The translations under genes and the position numbers were made by a program. This document shows positions 44,540-57,632 of a stretch of DNA of 57,632 nucleotides, piece by piece. A model generated the notes under the pieces. It was not told where the DNA came from and ran no database searches. It saw nothing but the letters and a program-made list of their open reading frames with translations. The stretch comes from Pseudomonadota bacterium. Its GTDB lineage: Bacteria; Pseudomonadota; Alphaproteobacteria; Sphingomonadales; CAKZYD01. The stretch covers positions 1 through 57,632 of the forward strand of contig JBCCLR010000002.1 of assembly GCA_039026755.1 (NCBI GenBank). Direction: 5' to 3'. The stretch's first letter is position 1. Each line of letters starts with the position of its first letter.

Positions 44540-45577
44540 CTACTTCACCCAATAGGGCCGCTGTTTGGGCAACTCGACATCTTGCCGGAGCAGGCCTTCG
44601 GTTAAGACGTTACCAATCACCGGCCCGTCAGCCGTCATCGTTATCCAAACAATATGATCAAATTCGCCATAATCTGGCCCTCGCATAGCGCTCAGCCCCC
44701 CGGTTGTTGCCAATGCAATTTTGTCGTGGCGATACCCTTTTTCGGTTTGTGCAAGGTCGGCCTCGTAACTGTGCAGATGGCCGGCGAACAGCGTGTAATT
44801 GCGCCCGTCCAACTGCGCTTCAACCTGAGGCCATTCGGGCGGAATGGAATATTTACGTGGCCAAGGGCCTGCCTTATTTTGGCTAGAACCATTGTCTGGC
44901 TTAACCCATTGGCTGCGCCAAAACGGCTTATGCATGAACACAAACGTCCACCGCACGTGTCTATGACGCTGCAAGACGTCTTTAATATACTGCAGTTGCT
45001 CAGCCTGCTGCTTGGCGAAAATTTGAGTATAGTCCTTCCAGTGCCATGCAGGCTCAGGGCGCTCAAACAGCTCCGAGTTTATCACCAAGAACAGCACGTC
45101 CTTATAGCGGAAGTGATAAAAGCTTCGGCCCAGTCGCTCGGCCCAAATATCCGCCATCAGTTGACTGGAGAAATCATGATCGCCAGGCGTGTAGAAAAAT
45201 GGCGCCTTTAGCCCGCCTAAAAGCGCGTCAAAGCGATCCCATTCCCTCTCGAGGGCTTGGCGATCACGTTTATACCCGTGCGGAAAATCATACCCTTCTA
45301 TTAAATCCCCCACACTCATGATAAATGCTGGCTGCAACAGCTCCGCCCTTTCAATAGCATCCGCAAACACCCCGGCACGCATGCCTCCCGTGCGGTCGCT
45401 CACAACGAGAAAATGAAAGGTCGATGGTGCATCGCGCACCGCGAGTGACGTCCACGGCTTCACGGCAAGATGGTGCGCCTTCAGGTCATCGATGACAAAT
45501 TGAGCGCGGCTGTCCGCCAGGTCACGGTCGGAACAGGCCGCGCAAAAAACCGCTAGGCTCAGCAAAATGTGCCGCAC
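44540..45577 (-). CDS. Calcineurin-like metallophosphoesterase, probable lipoprotein
   Basis: Motifs FLVVSDRTGG, SVGDLIEG, TPGDHDF, FMHKPFW and AGHLHSY. The GTG at 45577 (VRHILLSLAVFCAAC) avoids the 44-nt overlap with the upstream receptor that the ATG at 45634 would create. Confidence 0.7.
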   Translation of the reverse strand: MRHILLSLAVFCAACSDRDLADSRAQFVIDDLKAHHLAVKPWTSLAVRDAPSTFHFLVVSDRTGGMRAGVFADAIERAELLQPAFIMSVGDLIEGYDFPHGYKRDRQALEREWDRFDALLGGLKAPFFYTPGDHDFSSQLMADIWAERLGRSFYHFRYKDVLFLVINSELFERPEPAWHWKDYTQIFAKQQAEQLQYIKDVLQRHRHVRWTFVFMHKPFWRSQWVKPDNGSSQNKAGPWPRKYSIPPEWPQVEAQLDGRNYTLFAGHLHSYEADLAQTEKGYRHDKIALATTGGLSAMRGPDYGEFDHIVWITMTADGPVIGNVLTEGLLRQDVELPKQRPYWVK

Positions 45578-45590
45578 GCAAAACCGATGC

Positions 45591-48071
45591 TTAGTAGGCA
45601 AAGGTAACCCGCGCACCGTAGGTTCTTGGTGCACCTAAATATTCCGCCTGAACGATGAAGTCAGACGGGATTAGAACAAAGTCTTCATTGGTTAGATTTT
45701 GACCATAGAGTTCAGCGGCCCAGCGCCCGTCCTCAGTGCGTATTCCGATGCTGGCACCCAGCAGACTATAGCTTTCAATCACCAGGTCGGGGTCGTTGGA
45801 AGCGCCAGCGAAATAGCTGTCGGTCCAGCTAAAACTGATATTTGCGAACGCGTCTGCAGCGCCGCCTAATACCGGGTACTGGCCACTCGCGGTGATCGCA
45901 AATTGATTGTTCGGTGAGTTGCCAAGTTCGTTCCCCGTATTGCCCTCTGGGTTGTTCGCGCCGAGCGGGAAGCGATCAAATTGGGTGTCAAGAAAACCAT
46001 AGTTAGCATCAACGCTGAAGTAATCATTCAGTTTAAACCCTGCTTCAATTTCAACACCTTGGATAGTGGCGTCGGCGGCGTTTAAGATTGTGCCGAGAAA
46101 TGTTGCCGTATCGAATACGAACTCCTGCTTATTGTCATATTGCTGGTAGAAATAAACCAGATTGGCATAGCCACGGCGATCGGCAAACCGCGCCTTAAGC
46201 CCCCCTTCGAAGGATAAAATGGTCTCCTCATCAAACGGCGTTGTAATCTCAACTAAACTGTCTGCTTCAGTATTAAAGCCGCCTGCGGTGAAGCCCCGCG
46301 AAACGGACGCGAAGAGTGTAACGTCGTCGCCTGGCCGATAGGTTAGAGCCGCGCGCGGGGTAAACGCATCAAAGCTTTCTTGCAACTCACCGGTTTGAAA
46401 ACTGCGCGCCGCATTGCCGTTGTCGATAAAATTGAGCATCGCGGTGCGATCTTCGTAGGTGTAACGGATGCCGGCAGAAATATCGATTTTATCGGACAAA
46501 TGGTATGTCCCATCAACATACGCAGCAAAGGCATTCGTCTTAATGTTTTGATCGAAAATGATATCTTGAATGACAATGCCCGCACCATTCAAAAAGCGAT
46601 TGCGCTCGACGCGCCGATCAGAGTTTTCATACAGGTAAAATAGGCCTGCAATAAAGCTGTACTGATCGTTATCGGCGCTCACATACCGCAGCTCTTGGCT
46701 AAATGTACGCGGATCTTCAAAATCTTCATCAACTTGTTGGAAGGCAAAGGGGAGCAGTGTAAAACTCAGCCCATTAAAGCTAAACAGCTCTTCAGACGAG
46801 GATTCGCGGTATCCGCTAATCGATAAAAACGCGCCATGCCCCGCATCATAGCTGAGCCGCAAAGATGCGCCAAAAATATCCCGCTCGAAGTTCTGCGGCA
46901 CGCCTAGGTCTGAGGTGCGCCGATCTTCGCTACCAAATCCGATCGCCGAAAGTGTTCGCCCGCCATTGCTGTCGCTCGTGTAATCAAAAGCTAATATCGC
47001 TTCAAAAGCGCTATTTGGATGCCATAGAGCGGCAGTACGAACGGAGGTGCTTTGCCGGTTATCTTGGTCCTGACCGGTTATTGCATCCCGGCCAAACCCA
47101 TCGCGCTCTACTTGTGACACCGAAATTTTAGCTGCCAAGGTGTCGCTGACAGGACCGGATATGAGGCCGCGCAGTTCATAAGCGTTGAAATTTCCGTAGC
47201 CAGCCTGGGCTTTTACTTTAAGCACATCAACAGATGGCTTGGCCGACGTTAAAACAATCGCGCCAGAGGCTACATTTCGGCCAAAAAACGTGCCTTGAGG
47301 CCCACGCAAAACCTCAACACTTTCTAAATCAAATAACTCAAAATCAGCGCTGGAGAACCGTGGCAGATAGACCTCGTCAACATACACACCAACCGGCTCG
47401 CTTGTGCCAATCGCCGACAGGGTATTCGCGCCGCCACGGATGGCGAAAATTGGCTGAGTATTGGTAAAAGAGGACCCTAAAAAGTTGGGCGTTAAGCGAG
47501 AAATATCGCGTATGGAATCAAGTTGAAAAGCTTCTAGTTTTGCGGGCGTAAAAACGCTGATTGATGCCGGCACATTTTGCAGATCGTCACTGCGCTTCAG
47601 CGATGTAACAAAAATCGTCTCCAAAAAATTAGCATCCTCTTCAATCTCAGCGTTCGCAAGCAATGCATCCCCTTGAAACCCTTGCGCTCGCTGTTGACGA
47701 CCGCTCCGGATCGGCGGGGTGAATTGGCTCAGCTGCAGCCGCTCTGGCGGTGCAACAGCAATTGTTCGATTATTGATACGGCGGTATATCAGGCCAGTTC
47801 CTGACAAGATGCGGTCAAGTGCTTGTTCTGCCGTGAATTCACCACTTAATTCTGGCGCCCTTATGCCTGCAGCATCATCGCTGTAGAGGACAATTTGCTG
47901 GCCGGATTGACTGGCAATTTGCGTGATTGCTTGGTCAAGCGGCTGTGCGCTGAGTTTAAGGTCAGCGGCGACCACTGGGGTTAGAAAACTGCTATAGACC
48001 AAGGCCACAATGCTGTTCGCGGTGCACCGAGGAAGCCAGCATGGATACCGCACCGATTGTTTGTTTTTCAT
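45591..48071 (-). CDS. TonB-dependent transducer with an N-terminal STN signalling domain
   Basis: STN segment (LKLSAQPLDQAITQIASQSGQQIV...FTAEQALDRILSGTGL), followed by a plug and barrel. The C-terminus is ..YGARVTFAY. Confidence 0.88.
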   Translation of the reverse strand: MKNKQSVRYPCWLPRCTANSIVALVYSSFLTPVVAADLKLSAQPLDQAITQIASQSGQQIVLYSDDAAGIRAPELSGEFTAEQALDRILSGTGLIYRRINNRTIAVAPPERLQLSQFTPPIRSGRQQRAQGFQGDALLANAEIEEDANFLETIFVTSLKRSDDLQNVPASISVFTPAKLEAFQLDSIRDISRLTPNFLGSSFTNTQPIFAIRGGANTLSAIGTSEPVGVYVDEVYLPRFSSADFELFDLESVEVLRGPQGTFFGRNVASGAIVLTSAKPSVDVLKVKAQAGYGNFNAYELRGLISGPVSDTLAAKISVSQVERDGFGRDAITGQDQDNRQSTSVRTAALWHPNSAFEAILAFDYTSDSNGGRTLSAIGFGSEDRRTSDLGVPQNFERDIFGASLRLSYDAGHGAFLSISGYRESSSEELFSFNGLSFTLLPFAFQQVDEDFEDPRTFSQELRYVSADNDQYSFIAGLFYLYENSDRRVERNRFLNGAGIVIQDIIFDQNIKTNAFAAYVDGTYHLSDKIDISAGIRYTYEDRTAMLNFIDNGNAARSFQTGELQESFDAFTPRAALTYRPGDDVTLFASVSRGFTAGGFNTEADSLVEITTPFDEETILSFEGGLKARFADRRGYANLVYFYQQYDNKQEFVFDTATFLGTILNAADATIQGVEIEAGFKLNDYFSVDANYGFLDTQFDRFPLGANNPEGNTGNELGNSPNNQFAITASGQYPVLGGAADAFANISFSWTDSYFAGASNDPDLVIESYSLLGASIGIRTEDGRWAAELYGQNLTNEDFVLIPSDFIVQAEYLGAPRTYGARVTFAY

Positions 48072-48163
48072 GGCATTACCCCTCCGCTGATGGCCCTGTC
48101 GTCATGTGCTTTAAAGCCCTGGTCTGCGCATAAAGAGGGTTTTGAATGCGAAATTGGATACTG

Positions 48164-48181
48164 TTGTCATAATATTTTCAT
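48164..48181 (+). promoter_or_regulatory. Pho-box-like direct repeat TTGTCAT-AATA-TTTTCAT
   Basis: 15 of 18 positions match CTGTCATAWAWCTGTCAY. It lies in the divergent region between the transducer and the ECF sigma gene. Confidence 0.4.
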
Positions 48182-48313
48182 GGCCGGGCGGCTGAAGCGG
48201 CAAAAGCGCAGGTGCAAAAAACTGTATCCAAAACACTGCGCTCAACCGCTCTATAGTCTAGGGCAAAAGTTCGCTGACGACTTTTGACGCTAAAAAAAAG
48301 CGTGACCATAGCT

Positions 48314-48838
48314 ATGCAAGAACACCGCAGCAGCCGGCCTACAGAAGACCTGGAGAAAGCCTATAAGGCGTTTTCGCCAACGCTGCTGCGCTATTTGACA
48401 GCGCGGCTGGGCAACGTTCATGACGCGCAAGATATCGCTCAAGAGGGTTATTTGCGGCTCCTGCGGGTGCAAGAGGCGGATGTCATCGAAAAATTGGAAG
48501 GCTATCTCTTTAGGATCGTCACCAATCTTGCAAATGAGCATTTGTATAAAAAGGGCCGATCGCTTGAGACACTTGATCTTGATGCGTTGATGGAACGCGG
48601 CGGAGATGGCGACCGCTATGCCGGCGAAGCCCAGCTTGAAGCGCGTGCGGCACTGGATAGACTGGATAAAATTCTTCATCATCTACCACCGCTCTACCGC
48701 GCTGTTTTGCTACTGCGCAAACGCGATGGCTATTCGCATGCGGAAATTGCACAGCGCTTGGGAAAATCAAAAGCCACCGTGCACATTTATTTAACGCGGG
48801 CGCTGAGCCGCTGCCGGGAACTGTGGGAGGAGGGATAA
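48314..48838 (+). CDS. ECF (FecI-like) sigma factor
   Basis: Region 2 (DAQDIAQEGYLRLL...YLFRIVTNLANE) and region 4 (LLLRKRDGYSHAEIAQRLGKSKATVHIYL). Confidence 0.88.
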   Translation: MQEHRSSRPTEDLEKAYKAFSPTLLRYLTARLGNVHDAQDIAQEGYLRLLRVQEADVIEKLEGYLFRIVTNLANEHLYKKGRSLETLDLDALMERGGDGDRYAGEAQLEARAALDRLDKILHHLPPLYRAVLLLRKRDGYSHAEIAQRLGKSKATVHIYLTRALSRCRELWEEG

Positions 48839-48842
48839 AAAA

Positions 48843-49937
48843 ATGAATACCTCTTTTAACAAACAGATCGCTGAAGATGCCGCTGCCTGGGCTGTGGCGC
48901 TCGATGACGGTCCACTTGAACACGATCAAAAACAAGCGTTGCTTGATTGGCTAAAAACGTCTCCCGTGCATCTTGATGAGTTTTTGTTGGCACTGTCGAT
49001 TTTGGAAGGCTCGGCGCTCACACCGCGTAGCGCACGTTTAAACACTGACGATCTTTTGCAGCAGATCTCAGGGGATGTTTTGGCATTTAAGGGCTCAGCC
49101 GCTGCGCTTCAGGCAGAGCCGACACCCAGCAGCCGCCTAAAATTATCCCCTAAACGCTACGGAATTCTTGCTGCGGGCGTCATCGGCTTGTGCGCAACGA
49201 TAATCAGTCTCGCTTTGCAAAAAAACACGGTCGATCCACAACCAGATGCCGCGATGCTCATTCGCACCGCACTCGGCGAACAGCGCAGCGTACCGCTACC
49301 CGATGGCTCTATAATTGTTATCAATACCCAATCCCAACTCAAAATTGGCTACACCGATACGGTGCGAGAAATTGAGATTTATACGGGAGAAGCCCTGTTT
49401 GATGTGGCAAAGGACCCTGTCCGGCCATTTCGCGTGATTGCCGGGCCGAGCGTGGCAGAAGCAGTCGGCACGCGCTTTAATGTTCGGCATATTAACGATA
49501 AAATCGATGTCGCAGTCATCGAAGGGATCGTCGCGTTTGCGCCAAAGAATAGCCGTTTTGATGACATCGTGCGTGTCGCAGGTGCAGGAGACGACAGAAG
49601 CCTTGAACAGGGCAAAGTTATCTTAAACGCGGGCGAGCGTACAAATATGAGCGCGACGACAAAAATTCCGATTATAGCCGGCATCAGCACGGATGCTGTG
49701 ACCGCATGGACAGCGCGCCGCCTTGTTTTCAGCGGAGATGACCTGAGCACAATTGTGGCGGAGTTTAATCGCTACAACATACGCAAGTTAGTGATCAGCG
49801 ATGACAGCCTGGCAAAGGAAAGACTATCCGGTGTGTTTGCTGCGGATGACCCATCATCACTCATCGATTTTTTAAAGCTCACACGCGGCATGCGAACAGC
49901 GCAGTCAGATCACGAGTTGGGCATACGACTGGAATAA
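48843..49937 (+). CDS. FecR-family anti-sigma factor
   Basis: N-terminus AAAWAVAL..ALLDWLKTSPVHLDEF, a TM segment, and a FecR domain (LPDGSIIVINTQSQL). Confidence 0.85.
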   Translation: MNTSFNKQIAEDAAAWAVALDDGPLEHDQKQALLDWLKTSPVHLDEFLLALSILEGSALTPRSARLNTDDLLQQISGDVLAFKGSAAALQAEPTPSSRLKLSPKRYGILAAGVIGLCATIISLALQKNTVDPQPDAAMLIRTALGEQRSVPLPDGSIIVINTQSQLKIGYTDTVREIEIYTGEALFDVAKDPVRPFRVIAGPSVAEAVGTRFNVRHINDKIDVAVIEGIVAFAPKNSRFDDIVRVAGAGDDRSLEQGKVILNAGERTNMSATTKIPIIAGISTDAVTAWTARRLVFSGDDLSTIVAEFNRYNIRKLVISDDSLAKERLSGVFAADDPSSLIDFLKLTRGMRTAQSDHELGIRLE

Positions 49938-50102
49938 GCCTTGAAGGTGCTAAGGAATTGGCTTTTACGCGGCCCAGCAACACCAATCAGCGGTCAAACA
50001 TACCCTCTTTCGCTATGGCATGACGCTGGATCTATGTCATAAGATCTTGGCAGATCACTCAACAATAGGTGGTGGCTCCCATCGGTCAGGGGCGAGATCG
50101 TC

Positions 50103-51401
50103 TCAGCTCTCGCGCCAAGCCTTGTTCATACTGTCTTTGATGGGCTTAAAGAAATAGGTCAGCGGGGTGCGTGATCCGGTTTTAATGAGCACGTCTGCCG
50201 GCATGCCGGGGAGCAGCGGGTTTTCGCCCAGGCGCGCGACTTCTTGTTCGGGGACGCTGATGCGCGCAATGTAGAACGGTAGATCACGGTTCGGGTCGAC
50301 CATACTGTCGGCAGAGACGTAAATGACCTTGCCGGAGAGCTTCGGCGTGGAGCGCTGCGAAAACGCGGTGAATTGAACATCAGCGTCCAAGCCCAGCTGA
50401 ACGCTATCAATGTCTATGGGCTGCACTTTCGCTTCTACGATCAGGTCATCATCGTGCGGGACAATTTCCAGGACGGTTTCGCCAGGTTGAACAACGCCGC
50501 CCACCGTATGAACCGCAAGGCCGACAACATAGCCGCTCGATGTCGCGCGCAGATCTGTTTGCTCTAAGGTGTATGACGCAGCCCCGAGACGTTCCTCAAG
50601 ATCAAACAGCTGGGTTTCTTGATCCTGCAGCTCAATTACGATTTGTTCGATGCGGGCCTTGCGCAACTGCAAAATTTCGAGCTCTGCCTCACTAATCGCG
50701 CGCTTGGCCCTGGCAATGGAGGCGATATGTTCCCCTGCCTCGCCCTCCAAGCTGGACGCTTCACGCTCTAAGGCAAGCACCCTAGTGCGCGCGGTATAGC
50801 CCTTTTCCAGGAGTTCATAGAGCCCCGCCAATTCGTCTTCGATCAGCTGAATTTGTTTTTGCTTGGCCGTTGCTTGTTTCTCAAGGCCGCGAATTTCCTC
50901 TCTGAGCTGACCAATGCGCTCCTCGACCATTGCAACTTCGCCAAAATAGGTTTCTTGCCTGGCCCGAAACATCTTTTCCTGGCTTGCCAATATTTCAGCA
51001 ACAGCCGGAGCATTGGCACGGCTGCGCAAATCGCCGGGAAACATGATGGCGTCACGTTGGTCGCGTTCAGCATTGAGACGGGCAATTGAAGCACGGGTTG
51101 TGTCATAATTGCCTTGAATGATTTGATGCGAAGCTGCCGCGCGGGTCCGGTCGAGCGTTAACAACACATCACCGGTCTGCACATAATCGCCATTCTTTAC
51201 ATTCAGTGCGGTGACGACGCCGCCCTCTAAAGACTGAACTTTCTTTCTGTTGGTAAACACCTTAACCGTCCCCTGCGAGACTACAGCGCTGGCTATTTGT
51301 GCAACTGCGGCCCAAGTTCCAAAGCCTCCAAACGCTGTGAGAATAATTACCAGGCCAAGCATGACCAGCCGCCTCAGTTCAATGGGAAAGGTCTCTCTCA
51401 T
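50103..51401 (-). CDS. HlyD-family type I secretion membrane-fusion protein
   Basis: N-terminal TM segment, a long coiled-coil, a lipoyl/barrel segment, and a C-terminal LLPGMPADVLI. Confidence 0.9.
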   Translation of the reverse strand: MRETFPIELRRLVMLGLVIILTAFGGFGTWAAVAQIASAVVSQGTVKVFTNRKKVQSLEGGVVTALNVKNGDYVQTGDVLLTLDRTRAAASHQIIQGNYDTTRASIARLNAERDQRDAIMFPGDLRSRANAPAVAEILASQEKMFRARQETYFGEVAMVEERIGQLREEIRGLEKQATAKQKQIQLIEDELAGLYELLEKGYTARTRVLALEREASSLEGEAGEHIASIARAKRAISEAELEILQLRKARIEQIVIELQDQETQLFDLEERLGAASYTLEQTDLRATSSGYVVGLAVHTVGGVVQPGETVLEIVPHDDDLIVEAKVQPIDIDSVQLGLDADVQFTAFSQRSTPKLSGKVIYVSADSMVDPNRDLPFYIARISVPEQEVARLGENPLLPGMPADVLIKTGSRTPLTYFFKPIKDSMNKAWRES

Positions 51402-51413: not shown

Positions 51414-53135
51414 CTAGGCTCGTGCGGCGGTTTTGGGTTTTGCGCCGCCGGCTTGAACGGCGCGGGTGACTTTCGGTAGCACTTCAGTGCGCGGACCAAA
51501 GTGTTCAATCATGCCGCCGCGCAGCACCATGAGCACGTCGACGACAGACAAAACAGAGGGCCTATGCGCGATCACGATGGCCGTGGCACCGCGCTTTTTT
51601 AGGCCAATTAAAGCTTGCCGAAGCGCCTCTTCACCATCGCTATCTAAATTGGAATTGGGCTCATCAAGGACCACCAATTGCGGCGCTCCATAAAGCGCCC
51701 GCGCAAGGCCTATGCGTTGGCGTTGCCCGCCTGATAGGGCCTGCCCCCCCGCACCGATTTGCGTGTCATAGCCTTTCTCAAGCCTTAAAATAAGGTCATG
51801 GACGTCAGCAGCACGCGCCGCATCAATCACCGCCTGCGGGTCTGCCTCGCCGAAGCGGCAGATGTTGTCTGCAACCGTACCGTCAAATAGTTCCACATCC
51901 TGTGGCAGATAGCCAAGATGGGGGCCGAGCGCGATGGGGTCCCAATGGCTGATGTCTGCGCCATCTAGGCGCACGGCTCCCTTTGATGGCTGCCAGACGC
52001 CCACAAGCAGCCGGGCTAATGTGGATTTGCCTGCCGCACTGGGGCCAATAATACCCAGGCACTTGCCTGCTTCCAGGCCAAAGGAAATGCCCTTAATGAC
52101 CGGGTCGCTCGCGCCCGGCGGTGCGGCAATCAACTTTTCAGCTGTCAGCTGCCCAACCGGAGCTGGAAGCTGAAGCGGCTTTTCATCCTGCTCCGATAAA
52201 GCCAAAAAATCACTCAGCCGGCCAAAGCCAGCGCGGGCAAGAACGAAATTACGCCAGCTGTTGATCGCGCCCTCAACTGGTGCAAGGGCGCGGCCCATGA
52301 TGATGGACGATGCGATCATCACACCAGGCGTAATGTGCTCGAGTAAAGCAAGATAAGCACCCGTCCCCAGCATCGCGATTTGTAAACAGGGCCGAATAAA
52401 CTTTGCTGCAGCGGTGAGGCTCCCTGCGCGGTCGCTGGCTTTGGACTGCGCAGCGAGCCCTTTGGAATGCTGCCTAAGCCAGCGCTGTTTTAGGCCCGGC
52501 AGCATACCAAGCGCCGTAACCACCTCAACATTGCGCAAGGCACTTTCAGTAAAGCGCGTTGCCGCGCTATTCGCCCCGGAGGCTTCAAGTAGCAAATCCC
52601 GGGTCATGGTCTCGCTCACAAACGCGAGGGTGAACAGCATTAAGGCACCCCCCAAAGCAATCAGGCCTAAAACCGGATGAAACACAAAAATGATAGCCAA
52701 AAAGACCGGCGCCCATGGCGCATCAAAAAACGTGATCAGGCCTGGGCCGGTGAGGAATGTGCGCAGCACATCCATGTCCTTCAGCGGCTGTACGGACCGA
52801 TCAGCGCCATGTTGGCGCGCGGCAAACAGACCTGAGAATAAGGTATCTTGCAGCCGCTCTTCAAAATAGAGACCCAGCCTCACCAGAACGCGCGCACGCA
52901 CCAATTCAAGCAAGGCGCTAGTGAAGATCAACCCAACCGCCACAAACGTCAGGTACACCAGCGTTGGCAGGCTGCCAGAAGACAATACCCGGTCATAAAT
53001 CTGCAGCATGTACAGCGGGCCCACCAGCATCAAGAGATTGATGCAAAAACTGAACAGGCCTACTGAGCCAAAAATCCTCTTTGCACTGGCGAGAACCTGT
53101 TGCAGCGGTGATCTGGGTTTATGCGATGGTTGCAT
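51414..53135 (-). CDS. Type I secretion ABC transporter permease/ATPase (PrtD/AprD type, without a C39 domain)
   Basis: Walker A GPSAAGKST, ABC signature LSGGQRQR, and Walker B LVVLDEP. The ATG at 53135 is preferred. Confidence 0.9.
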   Translation of the reverse strand: MQPSHKPRSPLQQVLASAKRIFGSVGLFSFCINLLMLVGPLYMLQIYDRVLSSGSLPTLVYLTFVAVGLIFTSALLELVRARVLVRLGLYFEERLQDTLFSGLFAARQHGADRSVQPLKDMDVLRTFLTGPGLITFFDAPWAPVFLAIIFVFHPVLGLIALGGALMLFTLAFVSETMTRDLLLEASGANSAATRFTESALRNVEVVTALGMLPGLKQRWLRQHSKGLAAQSKASDRAGSLTAAAKFIRPCLQIAMLGTGAYLALLEHITPGVMIASSIIMGRALAPVEGAINSWRNFVLARAGFGRLSDFLALSEQDEKPLQLPAPVGQLTAEKLIAAPPGASDPVIKGISFGLEAGKCLGIIGPSAAGKSTLARLLVGVWQPSKGAVRLDGADISHWDPIALGPHLGYLPQDVELFDGTVADNICRFGEADPQAVIDAARAADVHDLILRLEKGYDTQIGAGGQALSGGQRQRIGLARALYGAPQLVVLDEPNSNLDSDGEEALRQALIGLKKRGATAIVIAHRPSVLSVVDVLMVLRGGMIEHFGPRTEVLPKVTRAVQAGGAKPKTAARA

Positions 53136-53160
53136 GAACAAAAATATCCGAAAAAGGCGC

Positions 53161-53188
53161 AAGGGAGCAGCATCTCTGCTGCTCCCTT
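53161..53188 (-). terminator. Strong hairpin (12-bp perfect stem, 4-nt loop) between the RTX gene and the T1SS ABC gene
   Basis: AAGGGAGCAGCA-TCTC-TGCTGCTCCCTT. On the coding (-) strand it is followed by GCGCCTTTTTCGG. Confidence 0.6.
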
Positions 53189-53216
53189 GACTTGCCTATG
53201 AAAGACCGGAAACCCG

Positions 53217-56200
53217 CTAGAGAATTGCGATATCACCTTCGGACAGGTCGTCCTTATCAAACCCAAGCAGGGTGATGGTATCGCCCGTGTCATTGAGCGT
53301 AAGGACGGTGCGGCTGCCGACCTGCTGCGCATCGTTAATCAGTCCCGCAGCGTCAAGCCCGCTAAAGCCGCTCAGCGTGATCAAGTCTTCGCCTGGCTCA
53401 AAATCGCGAATGATATCCTGTCCGGAGCCTGGCTCGAAGCTGAAGATATCTGCATTATCGCCGCCGCTTAGCCAGTCATTGCCTGCGCCGCCGTTTAGAA
53501 TATCTTCGCCCGTGCCGCCTTTCAAAACATCATTGCCGAGACCGCCGTTGAGGACATCATCGCCTTTACCGCCAAGCAGGATATCAGCACCTGCATCGCC
53601 GTTCAGTGTATCATCGCCCAGGCCGGCCCTTAAGGTGTCATCCCCGAGGCCACCGAAGAGTACATCCTCACCGTTGCCGCCGTTGAGCATATCATCGCCT
53701 TCATCGCCAAAGAGACTGTCATCACCTCGGCCGCCCATCAGATGGTCGCCTTCAGTGCCACCCACTAACGTATCATCGCCGCGACCGCCTTGGATAAAGT
53801 CCCGGCCTGCATCGCCATGCATGACATCATGGCCATTGGTGCCGACCATCTTATCGTCCTGAGATGTCTCAGCCATATCACCATCGCCATCGTCCGCATT
53901 GTCCGGAGCAGGCACCTCAACCGCTGCGGTGAGTTGCTGAGCTTGCGCTGATTCTGCCATATCGAGGCCATCCAGAACTGTGTCCGTGCGCACCGACAGG
54001 TTCTGGATGCGGGTATCATTTTCCGGGTCGGTTTCAGCCACATTAAAGGCGGTGTCTGTAAAGTTCGCCGCCAAGAATTCGGCCAAAGCATCTTGTTCAG
54101 ACCCAGCCGGCGCAAAAGTTGCAATGCCGTCTGGTAAGCCTTGCCCTTCCAGATCAACCCGATTTGCAAAGCCCGCATCTGCATCGACAAAACCAGCGAA
54201 AGGATAATTGTCTCCGCCACCGGCAATGAAATCAAGCGTAACCACGCGGATCGTCCGGCCCGGATCAACCACAGCGCCGTTTTCGACCAGTGCTTCTGTT
54301 GGGTCACCATTCTCATCAATCAGCGCAGCAGAGATGACCCGCGAGCCGGCAGGCTGACTTGGATCAAAGGAGAAGGAAATCCCACCAAATTGGCCAAATT
54401 GGCCAGGTGTCGCCCCTGGCGCTGTTGCCGAAACAGCGTGCTCAATCACCTCAAGCAACTGCTCAGATGTCAATGTAATCAGTGTCAAACCATTGTTAAA
54501 GCGTAGGGAATTGGAGATATCGAGCTGCGATATATCGCCGATCTCTTTACCTGCTGCCGGGTTGGCTTGCGGCGGAAGCAGATCGCCCTGCGGGCTGGTT
54601 TCACCGATCGGTGCACGCATGCCGCCGCCGTTTTTGATCGAGACTTCAACACTCGCATCAAATGCTTGCGCAACGGCCAGGTTCGCATCGGCCGTCAGGT
54701 TCCCGAAATTTGTTTCTTCCGTCCGCACTTCGGAACGACGACCGTCCAGATAGACATCGGTAGAGCCGAAGATATTGCCATCTTGCGCTTGAACGATGCC
54801 GGAAACCTCGCTGACCAGCTCTTCAACAAGGTCGCCTTTGGTGCCATCAGCGAACGGATCGTCCTCACCCCATAGCGCTGCAACCGCCGCATCCGTCGTT
54901 GCAAAGGACCCGGAGATATCTTCGTCGGTCGCATTGCCGTCTTCATCGAGGATGATCACGCCATCTTCATCAAAGTCGACAACCAGTCGGCCGACATACG
55001 CATACTCCTCACCGGTGGACACAACGACCACTGGGTCGCCATCCGCATTGGTCGTCGTGAAGGGGTAGTCCGCATCCGGCATATCACCGGGCTGCAGGCC
55101 GCGCTCAACATCTTCAGCGTCGGCAAGCAAAGTGCCAGAGCCACCGGCAATGATCACATCCACACCGCGCAGCAAGGTTGCTAGTTCTTGCTCAAGGGCA
55201 ATTTGCTGCAAGTGGCTTACCAAGACGATCTTGTTTACGCCGTCAGCAACCAGTGCATCGATAGTCGGTTGCAGGATTTGCGCTAAGGCAGGCATATCGT
55301 TTTCATTCGGCCCAATGACTGTTGTGCCACTTGGCGATGAAATGCTTTCGAGCACCTGCGTTGTGGCCCCAACCACGCCGATGCGCTCACCATTTTCTTC
55401 AATGGTCGTCGCCGGCGCGATCTTTGGAATAGAGCTATCCCCCGCAAGGCTTTCCTTCGGCCCAGTGGCAAAGGCCGTGTTGGGCAGAATATCGCTGGTG
55501 AACAGGTTGTTCAAATCACCGTCGCCGGAGAAGTCTAGGTTGGCGGACAGGTATGGGAACTGCGCGCCGACCCATCGGTCATCGCCAAGCCCTGGGTCGC
55601 GGAAGTCCTCTTCAATGATGTTTTCAAAGGCATCTGAACCGAGGTCGAATTCATGGTTGCCGACCGCAGATGCGTCAAAACCAATGACATTCATGATCGA
55701 AATATCAACCCGGCCGCCGCCTTCACGCAGCCCAGCATAAGCATCCATGAGATCGCCAGGCAGGCCAAACAGCTCATTATAAACATCGTTGAAGATACCA
55801 TCATCGCGGAATACGCGATCGCTGGCTGCATTTAAAAATGGTCCCGGCAGATAGTTGTCACCAGCAGAGAGGATGATGGTGTTTTCGTAGGTCTCTTCCA
55901 GCGCATCAACCATGGCTGCAAAGTTTGGCGCTGCATCAATGGCATTGACCCCGCCCTCCAGATCGGACGCATGCAATATTTGCAGCGTGAAGTCTGGCTC
56001 TTTTGGCGGCAGATCAATCTCCCAAATCGATGTGGTTGCGCTCGCCTCATTGGCAACCACCAAGAGCGGCTCACCATTGGGGCTATCTTCGGCAGAGATG
56101 AAAGCAAGACCTTCCGGTGCCACATCTTGCACCATGCCGCTGGCCTCGCTGCCGCCAGCGTTGCGCATATTTACATATTGCACAAACTCAGAATTCGCCG

Positions 56201-57632
56201 GGTCAGTGACGTTATAGACCATGACGCCGCCGGTCCGCTCAAGACCGATAAAAGCGTAGGTCTCGCCATCGATTTCGCCCACGGTGACGCCCTCAGGCTC
56301 AATGCCTTTCGCATCCGAACGCGCATCAAAACTGTCGCCTTCTTCATCATCATTGGCGTTAAACAACTCAGGAATTTGTTCCGCAACAATCCGGGCGAAG
56401 TCATCGCCTGAATCGAAAACTAAATTGCCTTTATCATCCCAGATCGAAAAGGATCGTGCGCCGTAGACAAACAGCTGATCATAATCACCATCGCCGTCCA
56501 AATCACCGTCGATGGTCGACACCTCCAAGCGGCCAAGCACTTCATCCTGTTGCAGTGCGTCAGCGTTCGGAAAGGCATCTGGATCGAGGTCTAAGTCGGC
56601 AACGCGTTCGTCTTCGCTGCGCGCATCCCCTTCATTACCGGTGATGAAGTAGGTTTGGCCTTCGCTTTCATAGGCAGCAATGCCATCGGGCATATACATG
56701 CCGAAGACCGGGTAGTTTTGCAGATTGATTGCGCCGTCCCGGTCGCTGGCATCAAGCAAATTACCATCGTCAAAGTCAATCAGACCAAGCACTACAGGCA
56801 GCGTTTCATCCGTTAAGCCAACGGTGCCCGCATCGGTATCAATATCGCCAGTAAGCGAGAAATCATTGTCGTTGATGACAGCAAGCCGGCCATCGGGCAG
56901 CAATGTCAGACCCTCTGGTTTATCTCCAGCGAGATATCCGATGGACGGCAAGTTGAGGACTTTGATTTTATTGACCGCATCAATGCCTAAATCGGACAGC
57001 TCATCAGCGCTCAGGCTTTCAAGAGTGCGGCCTTCCGGCAAAGCTGGTGCGTCGTCAGCCAGCAAGTTGGTGGCGTGGGTGATGTCGATCTCAAAGATGA
57101 ATTTCTTGCCCGTTGGATCAACCGAGCTGTCGCGTTCAATGACTTGGAATGTGCCATCGCCAGTGAAGACGGCATCGCCAATCTTATCGACTTTGGAGTG
57201 GGCAATATCAGAGCCCTCCAGCAGGTACACATATTCAGACACCGGCTCGCCTGAGTCCATGTCGATACCGAGAATGCGAATAACATCCGAATTGTCAGAC
57301 GTTGCCCGGTCTGGGTTGGCCAGCGGCGTTTGGATGAACGCGTAGACAATGCCAGCTTCCTCATCGAGCGCCACCGCTTCAAAGCCACGGTTGGCGCGGC
57401 GCTCTGCATACTCTTCAGGCAGGCTTTCTGTGCCAAAGGTATTTGCTGGCATCCCCACGTCTGCCGCTGTTCCTTCTGCAATGAAGCGATTGATCAGAAC
57501 GCCGTCGGAATTAAAATGATAGATCGCCGGGCGATATTCATCGACGGTCCAGAAGCTACCATCTTGTTCAAAGACGATGCCTTCCATGTCTGCGCCGAAC
57601 GGATCGAGCTCTAGCGGATTACCGTTTAGATC
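53217..57632 (-). CDS. Giant secreted RTX protein with three parts: a phytase-like/beta-propeller phosphatase-like region, a metallophosphatase/5'-nucleotidase region, and C-terminal RTX repeats. The N-terminus lies outside the window.
   Basis: The frame is open to the window edge. The propeller-type segment is [10 protein letters not shown]...GIEPEGV...[11 protein letters not shown]...APEGLAF. The UshA-like motifs are [20 protein letters not shown] and VGNHEFDLG. About 13 GGxGxD nonapeptide repeats follow. Confidence 0.85.
   Translation of the reverse strand, partial: [1471 protein letters not shown]
53436..53822 (-). repeat. RTX Ca2+-binding nonapeptide repeat block (coding repeat within the giant protein)
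   Basis: [53 protein letters not shown]... It is followed by a ~72-aa non-repeat C-terminus, typical of a T1SS signal region. Confidence 0.9.

What the first reader, a model, noticed from the sequence alone, without database searches (positions are those of the whole stretch)
44540..57632. Has-like layout: ECF sigma, anti-sigma and TonB transducer beside a T1SS and its giant secreted phosphoesterase
The order is metallophosphoesterase<-STN-transducer | ECF sigma->FecR | HlyD<-ABC<-RTX protein. It contains the same component classes as the heme-hemophore system hasISRADE: a surface-signalling sigma/anti-sigma pair, a transducer, and a T1SS with its cargo. Here the cargo is a >1470-aa multi-domain phosphatase/5'-nucleotidase instead of a hemophore. 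In addition, the transducer appears to form an operon with a periplasmic lipoprotein phosphoesterase. This suggests a cell-surface-signalling circuit in which a secreted enzyme releases or presents an organophosphate or nucleotide ligand, which the transducer then senses and imports. That would be a phosphorus or nucleotide analogue of hemophore systems. I do not know of such a system having been characterised.
Basis: inference. Interest (0 to 1): 0.8.

Follow-up and report, generated by a model that had tools for sequence, protein, structure and literature searches.

The report
Phosphoesterase-coupled TonB sensor beside nuclease exporter
A sigma/anti-sigma-controlled outer-membrane receptor that nearly always travels with a phosphate-ester-cleaving enzyme sits, in this one genome, next to a separately transcribed exporter for a giant DNA-degrading enzyme, so the two look like neighbours in a nucleic-acid scavenging island, not one hemophore-like circuit.

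Summary
Every domain call was confirmed.

The region is not one Has-like unit. It holds two transcription blocks that converge.

Block 1 is an ECF sigma and FecR anti-sigma, divergent from an STN-type TonB transducer followed by a metallophosphoesterase. This block is conserved. In 10 orthologous loci, the TonB transporter that follows the sigma-type promoter is followed by PhoD (7 loci), this metallophosphoesterase (2) or a patatin-like phospholipase (1). Among 151 loci around distant TonB receptors, PhoD appeared once. Each sigma/transducer intergenic region carries two divergent copies of a TAYCCAA-N16/17-CTCTWT promoter. These are often preceded by a Pho-box-like 11-bp direct repeat. No Fur box is present.

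Block 2 is a giant RTX enzyme with its own PrtD/HlyD type I exporter. A 99.9 % identical contig shows the full protein is 2,621 aa: an ExeM/NucH-like nuclease, a beta-propeller region, a 5'-nucleotidase and RTX repeats.

The adjacency of the two blocks is not conserved. On the receptor side 2 of 6 loci have a T1SS, and the second has a different cargo. On the cargo side 0 of 5 loci have the signalling module. The 346 nt upstream of the cargo gene lack the sigma-type promoter.

Nucleoside and purine salvage genes recur beside block 1 in 3 loci. The best reading is two separate phosphorus/nucleic-acid scavenging modules. Precedents exist: P. aeruginosa PUMA3 (VreAIR)/Hxc/LapA, Flavobacterium PUS loci and the Bacteroidales ddb locus.

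The parts
44540..45577 (-). Secreted, probably lipid-anchored, dimetal phosphoesterase (Metallophos, 345 aa). It is the last gene of the transducer operon.
   Evidence: Pfam PF00149. The gene-caller start is at 45577, 13 nt after the transducer stop; an alternative GTG at 45634 would overlap the transducer gene. The signal peptide ends ...FCAAC|S. The metal-ligand motifs D61, GD90-91, GDH132-134, H216 and GHLH266-269 are invariant in 50 homologues. The AF2 model has pLDDT 88.8. Its Foldseek matches are purple acid phosphatases, the nucleotide phosphodiesterase SMPDL3A, Rv0805, Lmo2642 and PhoD 2yeq. The orthologue sits at the same position in L004.
45591..48071 (-). TonB-dependent transducer: signal peptide, STN signalling domain, TonB box (ETIFVTS), plug and barrel.
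   Evidence: Pfam STN, Plug and TonB_dep_Rec_b-barrel. N-terminal sequence. All NCBIfam siderophore and heme receptor models score below their cutoffs. The best PDB sequence match is only 69 bits (FyuA). Orthologues at 52-71 % identity occur in 10 other loci.
48132..48160 (-). Predicted ECF-type promoter of the transducer operon: TATCCAA (48160-48154), 16 nt spacer, CTCTTT (48137-48132). It lies about 61 nt upstream of the ATG.
   Evidence: The bipartite motif is conserved at the same place in L001-L008 and L093. It scores 25.5 bits in the PWM scan. Only two such sites exist in the 57.6-kb window, where about 0.04 are expected by chance (own estimate from motif degeneracy).
48164..48181 (+). 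Pho-box-like direct repeat TTGTCAT-AATA-TTTTCAT, 3 nt from the -35 element of the transducer promoter.
   Evidence: It matches 14/18 of the E. coli Pho-box consensus. As a single site this is not significant: 4 such hits in the window against 1.5 in shuffles. However, an 11-bp-period repeat (TTCAY-A5/6-TTTCAC) lies at the same offset in L001, L002, L006, L007, L008 and L093. PhoB-dependent sigma-VreI promoters have the same layout (PMC4971064).
48225..48254 (+). Predicted second copy of the same ECF-type promoter, facing the sigma gene (autoregulation): TATCCAA, 17 nt spacer, CTCTAT. It lies about 60 nt upstream of ATG 48314.
   Evidence: 23.2 bits. A divergent second copy is present in L001, L002, L003, L005 and L007, with a weaker one in L004 and L008.
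48314..48838 (+). FecI-like ECF sigma factor. The ATG at 48314 is the probable start; a TTG at 48284 is also possible.
   Evidence: Pfam Sigma70_r2, Sigma70_r4_2 and Sigma70_ECF; TIGR02937. Homologue alignments begin at residue 11-21 of the long ORF.
48843..49937 (+). FecR-type transmembrane anti-sigma factor. It starts 4 nt after the sigma gene stop.
   Evidence: Pfam DUF4880, FecR and FecR_C. A transmembrane segment YGILAAGVIGLCATIISLAL is present.
50103..51401 (-). Type I secretion membrane-fusion protein (HlyD family). It is the last gene of the T1SS operon and converges on fecR.
   Evidence: TIGR01843 scores 390 bits against a cutoff of 209. 100 % identical in L092.
51414..53162 (-). Type I secretion ABC exporter of the PrtD/AprD type, with no C39 or CLD N-terminal domain.
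   Evidence: TIGR01842 scores 731 bits against a cutoff of 510.
53160..53189 (-). A 13-bp G+C-rich hairpin followed by a T-run, between the cargo stop codon and the ABC gene. It is a candidate attenuator.
   Evidence: The attenuator role is inferred by analogy with other cargo-ABC T1SS operons (own knowledge).
53217..57632 (-). C-terminal 1,471 aa of the T1SS cargo: Phytase-like/choice_anch_I beta-propeller region, a complete 5'-nucleotidase (HASD, GDN and GNHEF motifs), about 14 RTX nonapeptides and a C-terminal secretion signal. The N-terminus is lost at the contig end.
   Evidence: The full-length 2,621-aa version, with an N-terminal ExeM/NucH-like nuclease, is on L092 at 99.9 % DNA identity. 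The AF2 model of a 57 %-identical homologue matches CD73 and T. thermophilus 5'-nucleotidase at TM 0.70-0.75, normalised by target.
29401..44399 (.). Flanking nucleoside/purine salvage and phosphate-related genes. This is context for the finding, not part of the signalling unit. Genes: IU-nucleoside hydrolase, CNT nucleoside transporter, LacI, PfkB kinase, DUF2608 (HAD acid-phosphatase-like), adenosine deaminase, a frameshifted TonB receptor, LacI, OprO/P-type porin, Usp and HIU hydrolase.
   Evidence: Homologues of the same genes lie next to the orthologous module in L003 and L005. None was found in the 151 control loci.

Best explanation
The stretch holds two independent modules that serve the same nutrient economy.

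Module A (44540-49937) is a complete cell-surface-signalling unit.
- An STN-bearing TonB transducer senses an extracellular organophosphate ester and probably imports it. In this genome's context the ligand is most likely nucleic-acid-derived (nucleotides or short oligonucleotides). A lipid-derived phosphodiester is the alternative.
- Ligand binding relieves the FecR anti-sigma.
- The freed ECF sigma then fires two divergent TAYCCAA-N16/17-CTCTWT promoters. One drives its own sigma-fecR operon. The other drives the transducer-phosphoesterase operon.
- A PhoB-like regulator may co-activate these promoters from the direct repeat just upstream of the -35 element.
- The co-transcribed PAP/PhoD-like metallophosphoesterase strips phosphate from the imported ester in the periplasm.
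- The neighbouring CNT transporter, nucleoside hydrolase, kinase and deaminase genes could then use the nucleoside moiety.

Module B (50103-57632, plus 3.8 kb beyond the contig end) is a self-contained cargo-ABC-MFP type I secretion operon. It exports a 2,621-aa fusion enzyme (nuclease, beta-propeller region, 5'-nucleotidase, RTX) that degrades extracellular nucleic acid.

The two modules are neighbours in a roughly 32-kb scavenging island. Any link between them is metabolic: the products of B may feed A. It is not a hard-wired Has-type sigma-to-secretion circuit.

What is shown: gene content, operon geometry, conservation of A with a phosphoesterase partner, promoter motif conservation, and non-conservation of the A-B adjacency. 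What is inferred: the ligand class, PhoB involvement, autoregulation, and metabolic coupling.
For: - Domain assignments.
- Module A is conserved with an ester-cleaving partner in 10 orthologous loci. PhoD follows in L001, L002, L003, L005, L006, L008 and L093. Metallophos follows in L004 and the window. A patatin-like phospholipase follows in L007.
- A 39 %-identical C. segnis locus is flanked by a Metallophos gene and a metallo-beta-lactamase-fold hydrolase.
- Controls: PhoD 1/151, Metallophos 0/151.
- The phosphoesterase has intact metal ligands and a PAP/SMPDL3A/PhoD-like fold.
- The divergent bipartite promoter is found only in the sigma/transducer intergenic region of each locus. It scores 23-30 bits against at most 17 bits elsewhere. 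L004, which was not used to build the matrix, scores 20.4 and 15.1 at the expected sites.
- No Fur box is present (at most 11/19 matches). A 15/19 Fur box precedes the TonB receptor at 19415 in the same window.
- Nucleoside/purine genes lie next to module A in the window, L003 and L005. In L005 an AMP nucleosidase abuts fecR and a PhoX gene follows PhoD.
- Module B keeps the order cargo-(OEP)-ABC-MFP in L085-L087 and L092, without any signalling genes nearby.
- Cargo architecture. In L084 the nuclease is a separate adjacent RTX gene, which argues that the parts work together.
- No sigma-type promoter lies upstream of the cargo gene.
Against: - No expression or biochemical data exist. The ligand is inferred only from neighbouring genes.
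- The Pho-box match is weak on its own. Its orientation is reversed relative to the transducer gene, and no bona fide Pho-regulon promoter from this organism was available for comparison.
- The beta-propeller part of the cargo could not be tied to PhoX by profile comparison.
- T1SS adjacency in 2 of 6 orthologous loci against 0 of 151 controls is more than the background rate. Some selective association of a T1SS with module A therefore cannot be excluded.
- Only 346 nt upstream of the cargo gene could be examined.
- One orthologous locus (L007) carries a phospholipase instead of a phosphoesterase. L091 pairs the Metallophos family with a GDPD enzyme. A lipid-headgroup substrate is therefore possible.
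Confidence: 0.6

Rival explanations
1. One reading: one Has-like circuit. The ECF sigma controls the T1SS and its cargo. The secreted enzyme generates or presents the ligand to the transducer, as a hemophore does.
For: - All component classes are adjacent here.
- A PrtD-type T1SS also lies 3 kb from the orthologous module in L001. Its ABC protein is 52 % identical to the window's, whereas the ABC proteins next to cargo orthologues are only 28 % identical.
- T1SS adjacency is 2/6 against 0/151 in controls.
- PUMA3 is a precedent for a surface-signalling sigma driving a secretion system and its secreted phosphatase (PMC2729926).
Against: - The operons converge and are separate.
- The sigma-type promoter is absent from the 346 nt upstream of the cargo gene (5.2 bits) and from the region upstream of the L001 RTX gene (at most 10.3 bits).
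- The L001 cargo has no phosphoesterase domain, and its cassette is inverted with two unrelated genes in between.
- L002, L005, L007 and L008 lack a T1SS within 10 kb.
- 0 of 5 cargo-homologue loci have signalling genes.
- No hemophore-like small binding protein is present.
- 52 % identity is ordinary between PrtD-type exporters (own knowledge).
Confidence: 0.1
2. Module A is a metal (iron) acquisition system. The transducer imports an iron chelate, as most FecIRA-type systems do. The phosphoesterase is linked only because PhoD and PAP-type enzymes need Fe3+ and Ca2+.
For: - The transducer's best family and structure matches are siderophore receptors: TIGR01783 at 145 bits and FyuA at 69 bits.
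- PhoX-type and Psip1 phosphatases require iron and calcium (PMC11098088). That PhoD also binds Fe3+ and Ca2+ is own knowledge.
Against: - All siderophore and heme receptor models score far below their cutoffs.
- There is no Fur box, although one is detectable elsewhere in the window.
- The sigma gene appears autoregulated, unlike fecI and hasI (PMC9249621).
- No inner-membrane iron-chelate transporter or reductase accompanies the module in any locus. In contrast, the window's other signalling set (24719-29099) is followed by a PepSY_TM reductase-type gene.
- In L007 the partner enzyme is a phospholipase, which is not an iron enzyme.
Confidence: 0.1
3. The neighbours have no functional relation. 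Module A handles an organophosphate unrelated to nucleic acids, such as lipid headgroups, glycerophosphodiesters, phytate or polyphosphate. Both the T1SS cassette and the nucleoside cluster lie beside it by chance in a TonB-receptor-rich genome.
For: - Four TonB receptors lie in 57 kb.
- The partner is a patatin-like phospholipase in L007.
- The Metallophos family pairs with a TonB receptor and a GDPD enzyme in L091, and stands alone in L090.
- L001, L002 and L008 have no nucleoside genes within 10 kb.
Against: - Nucleoside/purine salvage genes lie next to module A in 3 of about 7 informative loci against 0 of 151 controls.
- L003 places PhoD, DUF2608 (HAD phosphatase-like) and a CNT nucleoside transporter directly in a row after the transducer.
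- The cargo enzyme's products (nucleotides, nucleosides and phosphate) match that cluster.
Confidence: 0.2

Closest known systems
FecIRA-type cell-surface signalling (E. coli Fec; Pseudomonas Fpv, Fox and Fiu)
   Same: It has an ECF sigma, a FecR anti-sigma with an N-terminal DUF4880 anti-sigma domain, and a TonB transducer whose STN domain precedes the TonB box. A sigma-type promoter lies in front of the transducer gene.
   Different: - No Fur box is present.
- The sigma gene carries a copy of the same promoter, so autoregulation is predicted. fecIR and hasI are sigma-70/Fur controlled and not autoregulated (PMC9249621).
- The co-transcribed partner is a phosphoesterase, not iron-chelate transport genes.
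- The transducer is below the cutoff of every siderophore receptor model.
Serratia/Pseudomonas Has hemophore system (hasI-hasS-hasR-hasA-hasD-hasE-hasB)
   Same: The component classes match: sigma, anti-sigma, transducer, PrtD-type ABC, membrane-fusion protein, and a cargo with a C-terminal secretion signal.
   Different: - In Has the receptor, hemophore and exporter genes follow one another in one Fur-controlled cluster in the same direction (PMC9249621). Here the T1SS is a separate convergent operon in cargo-ABC-MFP order.
- The cargo is a 2,621-aa enzyme, not a small ligand-binding protein.
- The adjacency is not conserved.
- There is no Fur box.
[quoted passage not shown]
   Same: It is a surface-signalling sigma/anti-sigma set tied to phosphate starvation rather than iron. 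A pho box lies just upstream of the -35 element of the sigma-dependent promoters (PMC4971064). It sits next to a secretion system that exports a phosphatase (PMC2729926).
   Different: - VreA is a periplasmic STN protein without a barrel. Here a full transducer is present.
- The secretion system is type II and is demonstrably in the VreI regulon. Here it is type I, and no sigma-type promoter was found.
- vreAIR is not autoregulated by VreI.
- PhoB control is unproven here.
Flavobacterium phosphate utilisation systems (PUS I-IV; Lidbury et al. 2021, PMC8115612)
   Same: These are Pi-depletion-induced TonB transporters co-localised with periplasmic phosphodiesterases or monoesterases. PUSI and PUSIII also have an ECF sigma and a FecR-like regulator. 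The proposed substrates are phosphodiesters from nucleic acids and lipid headgroups.
   Different: - PUS use SusC/SusD pairs, or TonB transporters plus lipoproteins, in Bacteroidota. Here a classical proteobacterial STN transducer acts without a SusD partner.
- Expression under Pi depletion is shown for PUS but not here.
Bacteroidales ddbABCDEF DNA-utilisation locus (bioRxiv 10.1101/2025.03.18.642099)
   Same: The logic is the same: secreted nucleases, then a TonB transporter, then a periplasmic nuclease, then nucleobase metabolism. That matches cargo enzyme, then transducer, then periplasmic phosphoesterase, then the nucleoside cluster.
   Different: The ddb genes form one locus with a DdbC/DdbD transporter pair and no sigma/anti-sigma. 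Here there are two independent operons and unrelated protein families.
Shewanella ExeM/NucH extracellular nucleases and cyanobacterial 'alkaline phosphatase / 5'-nucleotidase' giant proteins (choice-of-anchor I family)
   Same: The cargo N-terminus matches the ExeM/NucH model over its whole length. The remainder is 50-62 % identical to widespread 1,650-2,000-aa proteins that sources name alkaline phosphatase or 2',3'-cyclic-nucleotide phosphodiesterase/5'-nucleotidase.
   Different: - Here nuclease and phosphatase/nucleotidase are fused into one 2,621-aa RTX protein. They are separate adjacent genes in L084.
- The ExeM/NucH score (158 bits) is below the curated cutoff of 300.
- None of these giant proteins was found to be biochemically characterised in the papers searched.

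Membership tests
Cell-surface signalling (FecIRA-type) | FecI-like ECF sigma factor | tested here: met
   Sigma70_r2, Sigma70_r4_2 and Sigma70_ECF domains. TIGR02937 scores 79 bits against a cutoff of 43.
Cell-surface signalling (FecIRA-type) | FecR-type anti-sigma with an N-terminal anti-sigma domain, one transmembrane segment and a periplasmic FecR domain | tested here: met
   DUF4880, FecR and FecR_C domains. Transmembrane segment seen.
Cell-surface signalling (FecIRA-type) | TonB-dependent transporter with an N-terminal STN signalling domain ahead of the TonB box | tested here: met
   STN at residues 61-108, ETIFVTS at about 152-158, Plug at 164-270.
Cell-surface signalling (FecIRA-type) | Sigma-dependent promoter in front of the transducer gene | tested here: met
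   This was tested comparatively only. TAYCCAA-N16/17-CTCTWT is conserved in about 9 loci and unique in each. No transcription start mapping was done.
Cell-surface signalling (FecIRA-type) | Fur-controlled expression and an iron-chelate ligand | tested here: not met
   The best Fur-box match in the intergenic region is 11/19. A 15/19 site precedes another receptor in the window. The ligand was not testable.
Has hemophore system | Small secreted hemophore (HasA) that binds the ligand and docks on the receptor | tested here: not met
   The only T1SS cargo is a 2,621-aa multi-enzyme protein.
Has hemophore system | Receptor, cargo, ABC and MFP genes in one co-directional, sigma-dependent cluster | tested here: not met
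   The operons converge. No sigma-type promoter lies upstream of the cargo gene. Has gene order is from PMC9249621.
Has hemophore system | Conserved synteny of signalling genes with the exporter across relatives | tested here: not met
   2/6 on the receptor side, with a different cargo in the second case. 0/5 on the cargo side.
PUMA3-like (phosphate-responsive signalling) | PhoB-dependent expression through a pho box upstream of the -35 element | tested here: inconclusive
   An 11-bp-period direct repeat is conserved at that offset. The consensus match is only 13-14/18 and is not enriched in the window.
PUMA3-like (phosphate-responsive signalling) | Barrel-less periplasmic receptor (VreA) | tested here: not met
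   A full 22-strand-type barrel domain is present.
PUMA3-like (phosphate-responsive signalling) | Secretion system and secreted phosphatase belong to the sigma regulon | tested here: not met
   No sigma-type promoter near the T1SS or cargo gene in the window, L092 or L001. No expression test was possible.
Flavobacterium PUS | TonB transporter co-localised with periplasmic phosphodiesterase or monoesterase | tested here: met
Flavobacterium PUS | SusC/SusD-type pair | tested here: not met
   No SusD-like gene is present. The transporter is a classical STN transducer.
Flavobacterium PUS | Induction by phosphate depletion | not testable with these tools
   This needs expression data.
RTX-enzyme type I secretion (PrtDEF/AprDEF type) | PrtD-type ABC exporter without a C39 or CLD domain | tested here: met
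   TIGR01842 scores 731 bits against a cutoff of 510.
RTX-enzyme type I secretion (PrtDEF/AprDEF type) | HlyD-family membrane-fusion protein encoded next to the ABC gene | tested here: met
   TIGR01843 scores 390 bits against a cutoff of 209. The gap between the genes is 12 nt.
RTX-enzyme type I secretion (PrtDEF/AprDEF type) | Cargo with GGxGxD nonapeptide repeats and an uncleaved C-terminal signal, encoded upstream of the ABC gene | tested here: met
   7 HemolysinCabind stretches. The C-terminus ends ...[10 protein letters not shown].
RTX-enzyme type I secretion (PrtDEF/AprDEF type) | TolC-like outer-membrane factor | tested here: not met
   No OEP gene is present in the window or in L092. 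One is present in L085-L087. It is presumably encoded elsewhere.

The most novel reading that the evidence does not exclude
Module A may define a previously unrecognised class of proteobacterial cell-surface signalling. In this class a TonB transducer senses and imports an extracellular organophosphate (nucleotide, oligonucleotide or other phosphodiester). The response is autoregulated, Fur-independent and possibly PhoB-gated. The periplasmic ester-cleaving partner is interchangeable (PhoD, PAP-like metallophosphoesterase or phospholipase). In Hyphomonas-type loci the sensing receptor and the transporting receptor are separate paralogues. In this organism the ligand would be supplied by the secreted nuclease-phosphatase-nucleotidase enzyme, which gives a loose, non-hard-wired analogue of hemophore-assisted uptake for phosphorus.
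Probability: 0.3. Interest if true: 0.7.

Novelty: new variant of a known kind. Interest (0 to 1): 0.5.

Why it matters
TonB-dependent receptors induced by phosphate starvation are seen repeatedly in transcriptomes and proteomes. Examples are the Caulobacter PhoB regulon (PMC11208175) and the Flavobacterium PUS loci (PMC8115612). In the papers read here their substrates are only proposed.

A small, well-delimited family of signalling-type receptors whose transporter gene is followed by PhoD, a metallophosphoesterase or (once) a phospholipase offers a tractable entry point. The sigma factor and its unique promoter provide a ready reporter for ligand screening.

If the ligand proves to be a nucleotide or oligonucleotide, this would show that marine bacteria actively sense dissolved nucleic-acid breakdown products at the cell surface. 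This contig begins with photosynthesis genes (1-9900), so the organism is probably phototrophic.

The 2,621-aa nuclease/phosphatase/5'-nucleotidase fusion is also a good candidate for an 'all-in-one' extracellular DNA-to-nucleoside enzyme.

If instead the system is iron-linked, the finding is ordinary.

Tried and rejected
1. **Fur box in the sigma/transducer intergenic region.** The best match is 11/19, so this was rejected. A 15/19 site at 19275 upstream of another receptor served as a positive control.
2. **E. coli Pho-box consensus as stand-alone evidence.** There are 4 hits at 14/18 or better in the window against 1.5 in shuffles, which is not significant. Only the cross-locus conservation is retained.
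3. **Pho boxes upstream of cargo homologues.** Only L084 has a good one (CTGTCATCATGATGTCAC). The others score 13/18 or less.
4. **Looking for the same repeat upstream of phoX in L005.** The region is coding, so the test was uninformative.
5. **The perfect inverted repeat upstream of the full-length cargo gene** (TGACAGAACGG-T-CCGTTCTGTCA in L092), as a possible shared operator with the two LacI-family regulators of the nucleoside cluster. It has no second copy in the window.
6. **Profile comparison of the choice_anch_I/phytase-like region with PhoX.** No similarity was found (hhalign probability 2.7 %). The Psip1/PhoX-like idea therefore remains an untested lead.
7. **PDB sequence search with the metallophosphoesterase.** No hits. 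Only the fold search was informative.
8. **Fold search with the whole cargo-homologue model.** 5'-nucleotidase hits filled the list, so the propeller could not be classified.
9. **Enlarging the orthologue set.** One GTDB scan and one metagenome scan added only 7 and 2 close relatives. This receptor clade is rare.
10. **Recent duplication of the window's two signalling sets.** Rejected; they are 26 % identical.
11. **The 25-kb contig carrying the N-terminal cargo fragment (P0362).** It would show about 21 kb upstream of the cargo gene.

Full report
**1. Observation**

- Metallophos (44540-45634, -) is downstream of an STN, Plug and barrel TonB transducer (45591-48071, -).
- An ECF sigma (48284/48314-48838, +) is followed by FecR (48843-49937, +).
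- HlyD (50103-51401, -) is downstream of a PrtD-type ABC (51414-53162, -), which is downstream of an RTX protein (53217-57632, -).

The RTX reading frame is open to the last base of the window. The window is an entire 57,632-nt contig, so the cargo gene is cut by the assembly.

The gene caller's metallophosphoesterase starts at 45577, 13 nt after the transducer stop. Either start implies one operon.

The sigma/fecR operon and the T1SS operon converge, with stops at 49937 and 50103. This already separates the region into distinct transcription units.

**2. What travels with the receptor**

A protein search found orthologues of the transducer at 52-71 % identity in Hyphomonas, Caulobacterales and unclassified Pseudomonadota MAGs (metagenome-assembled genomes). 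The neighbourhoods came from six sets of calls.
- Searches gave loci L001-L003.
- One GTDB scan gave L004-L010; L009 is the same locus as L001, and L010 the same as L002.
- One metagenome scan gave L093 and L094.
- One search gave L089.
- Searches gave the cargo-homologue loci L084-L088.
- Searches gave L090, L091 and L092.

In every orthologous locus a sigma-fecR pair is divergent from a TonB transporter gene. In 9 of 10 loci the next gene downstream is a phosphoesterase.
- PhoD follows in L001, L002, L003, L005, L006, L008 and L093.
- The same metallophosphoesterase family follows in the closest relative L004 and in the window.
- The exception, L007, has a patatin-like phospholipase.
- A 39 %-identical C. 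segnis locus has the order Metallophos, sigma, FecR, STN transducer, metallo-beta-lactamase-fold hydrolase.

As a control I used the 151 loci (2.4 Mb) that the same scans returned around distant TonB receptors (24-35 % identity). PhoD appeared once. This Metallophos family, a PrtD/HlyD pair and the nucleoside genes did not appear at all.

The coupling of this receptor clade to an ester-cleaving periplasmic enzyme is therefore real. The enzyme family is interchangeable.

The window's enzyme keeps all dimetal ligands, which are invariant in 50 homologues. Its AF2 model (pLDDT 88.8) resembles purple acid phosphatases, the nucleotide phosphodiesterase SMPDL3A, the cyclic-nucleotide phosphodiesterases Rv0805 and Lmo2642, and PhoD itself.

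**3. Regulation read from the DNA**

I aligned the sigma/transducer intergenic regions. Two divergent copies of a bipartite motif, TAYCCAA-N16/17-CTCTWT, appear in each. Each copy lies about 60 nt upstream of a start codon.
- In the window, one copy is at 48160-48132 on the minus strand (transducer side).
- The other is at 48225-48254 on the plus strand (sigma side).

A position weight matrix gives 23-30 bits at these sites. The next best score anywhere in the window or in the 22-kb loci is 17 bits or less. L004, which was left out of the matrix, scores 20.4 and 15.1 at the expected positions.

My own estimate of chance occurrence for the strict pattern is about 0.04 per window. I read these sites as the sigma factor's own promoters.

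That reading predicts autoregulation. fecIR and hasI are Fur/sigma-70 controlled and not autoregulated (PMC9249621).

No Fur box is present: the best match is 11/19. A 15/19 Fur box lies 140 nt upstream of another TonB receptor in the window, at 19275.

Directly upstream of the transducer-side -35 element lies an 11-bp-period direct repeat. In the window it reads TTGTCAT-AATA-TTTTCAT. In relatives it reads TTCAY-A5/6-TTTCAC. It matches 13-14 of 18 positions of the Pho-box consensus.

Taken alone, such a match is not significant. However, its position is conserved. A pho box just upstream of the -35 element of an ECF promoter is the arrangement shown experimentally for PhoB-dependent sigma-VreI promoters (PMC4971064). 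PhoB control is therefore a hypothesis, not a result.

**4. The cargo and its exporter**

The cluster of the window's truncated protein contains a 2,621-aa member. Its 11.4-kb contig (L092) is 99.9 % identical in DNA to window 50031-57632 and extends 3.8 kb beyond it.

The full-length protein has four parts:
- an ExeM/NucH-type extracellular endonuclease at residues 228-782 (158 bits, full profile coverage, below the curated cutoff);
- a choice-of-anchor-I/phytase-like beta-propeller region at about 800-1690;
- a complete 5'-nucleotidase at 1753-2302;
- RTX repeats.

The 5'-nucleotidase motifs HASD, GDN and GNHEF are present in the window copy. A model of a 57 %-identical homologue superposes on CD73 and Thermus 5'-nucleotidase at TM 0.70-0.75.

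Homologues are widespread, with 2,979 hits. Many are cyanobacterial and are labelled alkaline phosphatase or 5'-nucleotidase.

In L084 the nuclease part is a separate adjacent RTX gene, so the window organism has fused them.

The exporter is a standard PrtD/HlyD pair. A 13-bp hairpin followed by a T-run lies between the cargo and ABC genes. That layout is typical of cargo-ABC-MFP operons (own knowledge).

**5. Is the adjacency meaningful?**

From the receptor side, six orthologous loci have enough flank beyond fecR.
- Only the window and L001 have a T1SS within 10 kb.
- In L001 the cassette is inverted relative to the window.
- It is separated from fecR by a P450 gene and an epimerase gene.
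- Its cargo is a 971-aa RTX protein without any phosphoesterase domain.

From the cargo side, five loci encoding homologues (L084-L088) have no sigma, FecR or STN receptor within 10 kb. Three of them have OEP-ABC-MFP directly downstream.

The sigma-type promoter is absent from the 346 nt upstream of the full-length cargo gene (best 5.2 bits) and from the region upstream of the L001 RTX gene.

A rate of 2/6 against 0/151 is above background, so I do not exclude some loose association. The window's ABC protein is also closer to L001's (52 %) than to those next to cargo orthologues (28 %). But 52 % is ordinary for PrtD-type exporters (own knowledge).

**6. What does recur: nucleoside and purine salvage**

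Window positions 29401-44399 encode an IU-nucleoside hydrolase, a CNT nucleoside transporter, two LacI regulators, a PfkB kinase, a DUF2608 protein (HAD acid-phosphatase-like), an adenosine deaminase, a frameshifted TonB receptor, an OprO/P-type porin, a Usp protein and HIU hydrolase.
- L003 places PhoD, DUF2608, CNT, LacI, nucleoside hydrolase, PfkB and allantoin-pathway genes directly after the transducer.
- L005 has xanthine dehydrogenase, HIU hydrolase, adenosine deaminase, CNT, nucleoside hydrolase and AMP nucleosidase abutting fecR. A PhoX gene follows PhoD.
- L089 has a nucleoside hydrolase 8 kb away.
- No control locus has these genes.

This is the strongest hint to the ligand class: nucleic-acid-derived phosphate esters.

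Counter-hints are the phospholipase in L007 and a Metallophos-TonB receptor-GDPD cluster in L091. These point to lipid-derived phosphodiesters in some lineages.

**7. Mechanism proposed**

Shown:
- two converging operons;
- a conserved sigma/anti-sigma/transducer/esterase module with its own unique divergent promoters;
- an independent nuclease-phosphatase-nucleotidase T1SS cassette;
- a salvage cluster alongside.

Inferred:
- The secreted enzyme degrades extracellular nucleic acid.
- Nucleotides or oligonucleotides bind the transducer and are probably imported by it.
- Signalling through FecR releases the sigma, which amplifies its own operon and the transducer-phosphoesterase operon, possibly only when PhoB is active.
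- The periplasmic enzyme liberates phosphate.
- Nucleosides enter through the CNT transporter and are catabolised.

Any coupling of the two modules would be metabolic.

**8. Comparison with known systems**
- Module A meets the structural definition of FecIRA-type signalling. It departs in regulation and in its partner genes.
- It is not a Has system: there is no hemophore, no co-directional receptor-cargo-exporter cluster, no Fur box and no conserved synteny.
- P. aeruginosa PUMA3 is the closest regulatory precedent (PMC4971064, PMC2729926). It is phosphate-responsive, has a pho box ahead of the ECF promoters, and its sigma up-regulates the Hxc T2SS and the LapA phosphatase.
- The Flavobacterium PUS loci are the closest functional precedent (PMC8115612). 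They are Pi-induced TonB transporters with periplasmic phosphodiesterases, and some have ECF sigma/FecR.
- The Bacteroidales ddb locus has the same logic of secreted nuclease, TonB transporter and periplasmic nuclease (bioRxiv 10.1101/2025.03.18.642099).
- The Caulobacter PhoB regulon includes TonB receptors with no assigned substrate in the paper read (PMC11208175).

The finding is therefore a new proteobacterial variant of a known kind, not a new category.

**9. Verdict**
The phosphorus/nucleotide theme and the receptor-phosphoesterase operon hold. The Has-like integration with the T1SS does not.
- Interest is moderate (0.5). The conserved phosphoesterase-coupled signalling receptor, with a ready-made promoter reporter, is a useful lead to the unknown substrates of phosphate-starvation TonB receptors. 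Everything about ligand and regulation is still inference, and precedents exist.

Noticed in passing
window 16-9900: This is the end of a photosynthesis gene cluster: bchH-like CobN/Mg-chelatase, bchL, bchM, a PucC-family protein, reaction-centre H chain (puhA), a rubrerythrin-like protein (candidate acsF-type cyclase), DUF3623 (puhE-like) and a class I/II aminotransferase-fold protein (possibly ALA synthase). The contig probably comes from an aerobic anoxygenic phototroph.
   Followed up: no
window 22644-29099 (-): A second, unrelated surface-signalling set lies here: ECF sigma (28488-29099), FecR (27409-28491) and an STN transducer (24719-27385), followed by a PepSY_TM protein (22644-24227). 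It is only 26 % identical to the set under study and looks like a conventional iron-chelate system.
   Followed up: partly
window 19275-19293 (+), upstream of the TonB receptor at 19415-21625: A Fur-box-like site GTTCTTGACAATCATTATC matches 15/19 of the consensus. I used it as a positive control for Fur-box detection.
   Followed up: partly
window 37928-39995 (+): A TonB receptor inside the nucleoside cluster, between adenosine deaminase and LacI, is split into Plug and barrel ORFs. The frame shifts near 38925-38945, next to a GGGG run. This is either a pseudogene or an assembly error.
   Followed up: partly
L092 about 256-278 (about 70-90 nt upstream of the full-length cargo start codon; beyond the window end): A perfect 11-bp inverted repeat TGACAGAACGG-T-CCGTTCTGTCA is a likely operator for a dimeric regulator. 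No second copy exists in the window.
   Followed up: partly
L006, L008, L093 (Hyphomonas-type loci); L007: The sensing and transporting functions appear to be split. An STN-bearing paralogue converges on fecR and has no sigma-type promoter. A second, STN-less paralogue follows the sigma-type promoter and is co-transcribed with PhoD. In L007 the two paralogues are in tandem.
   Followed up: partly
L084 10001-20163: In this alphaproteobacterial MAG the phosphatase/5'-nucleotidase RTX protein and the nuclease RTX protein are two adjacent genes. The window organism has them fused. A good Pho box (CTGTCATCATGATGTCAC) lies upstream of the first gene.
   Followed up: partly
window 42690-42707 (- strand), between the OprO/P-type porin and the Usp gene: This is the best Pho-box consensus match in the window: ATGTCATATATTTGTAAT, 15/18. 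Its role was not examined.
   Followed up: no
window 33735-34766 (-) and L003 6178-7299: DUF2608 proteins show weak similarity to HAD class-B acid phosphatases. They sit in nucleoside-uptake clusters, directly after PhoD in L003. They are candidate periplasmic nucleotidases.
   Followed up: no
one search hit P0150 (Myxosarcina sp. GI1) and PMC11098088: The Psip1 paper reports a Myxosarcina sp. GI1 Psip1 orthologue that carries an extra phytase-like domain. One search returned a choice-of-anchor-I protein with a phytase-like domain from the same strain. The choice_anch_I domain may therefore correspond to the Psip1 high-affinity alkaline phosphatase domain. A profile comparison with PhoX did not support this. 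No Psip1 sequence was available to test it directly.
   Followed up: partly
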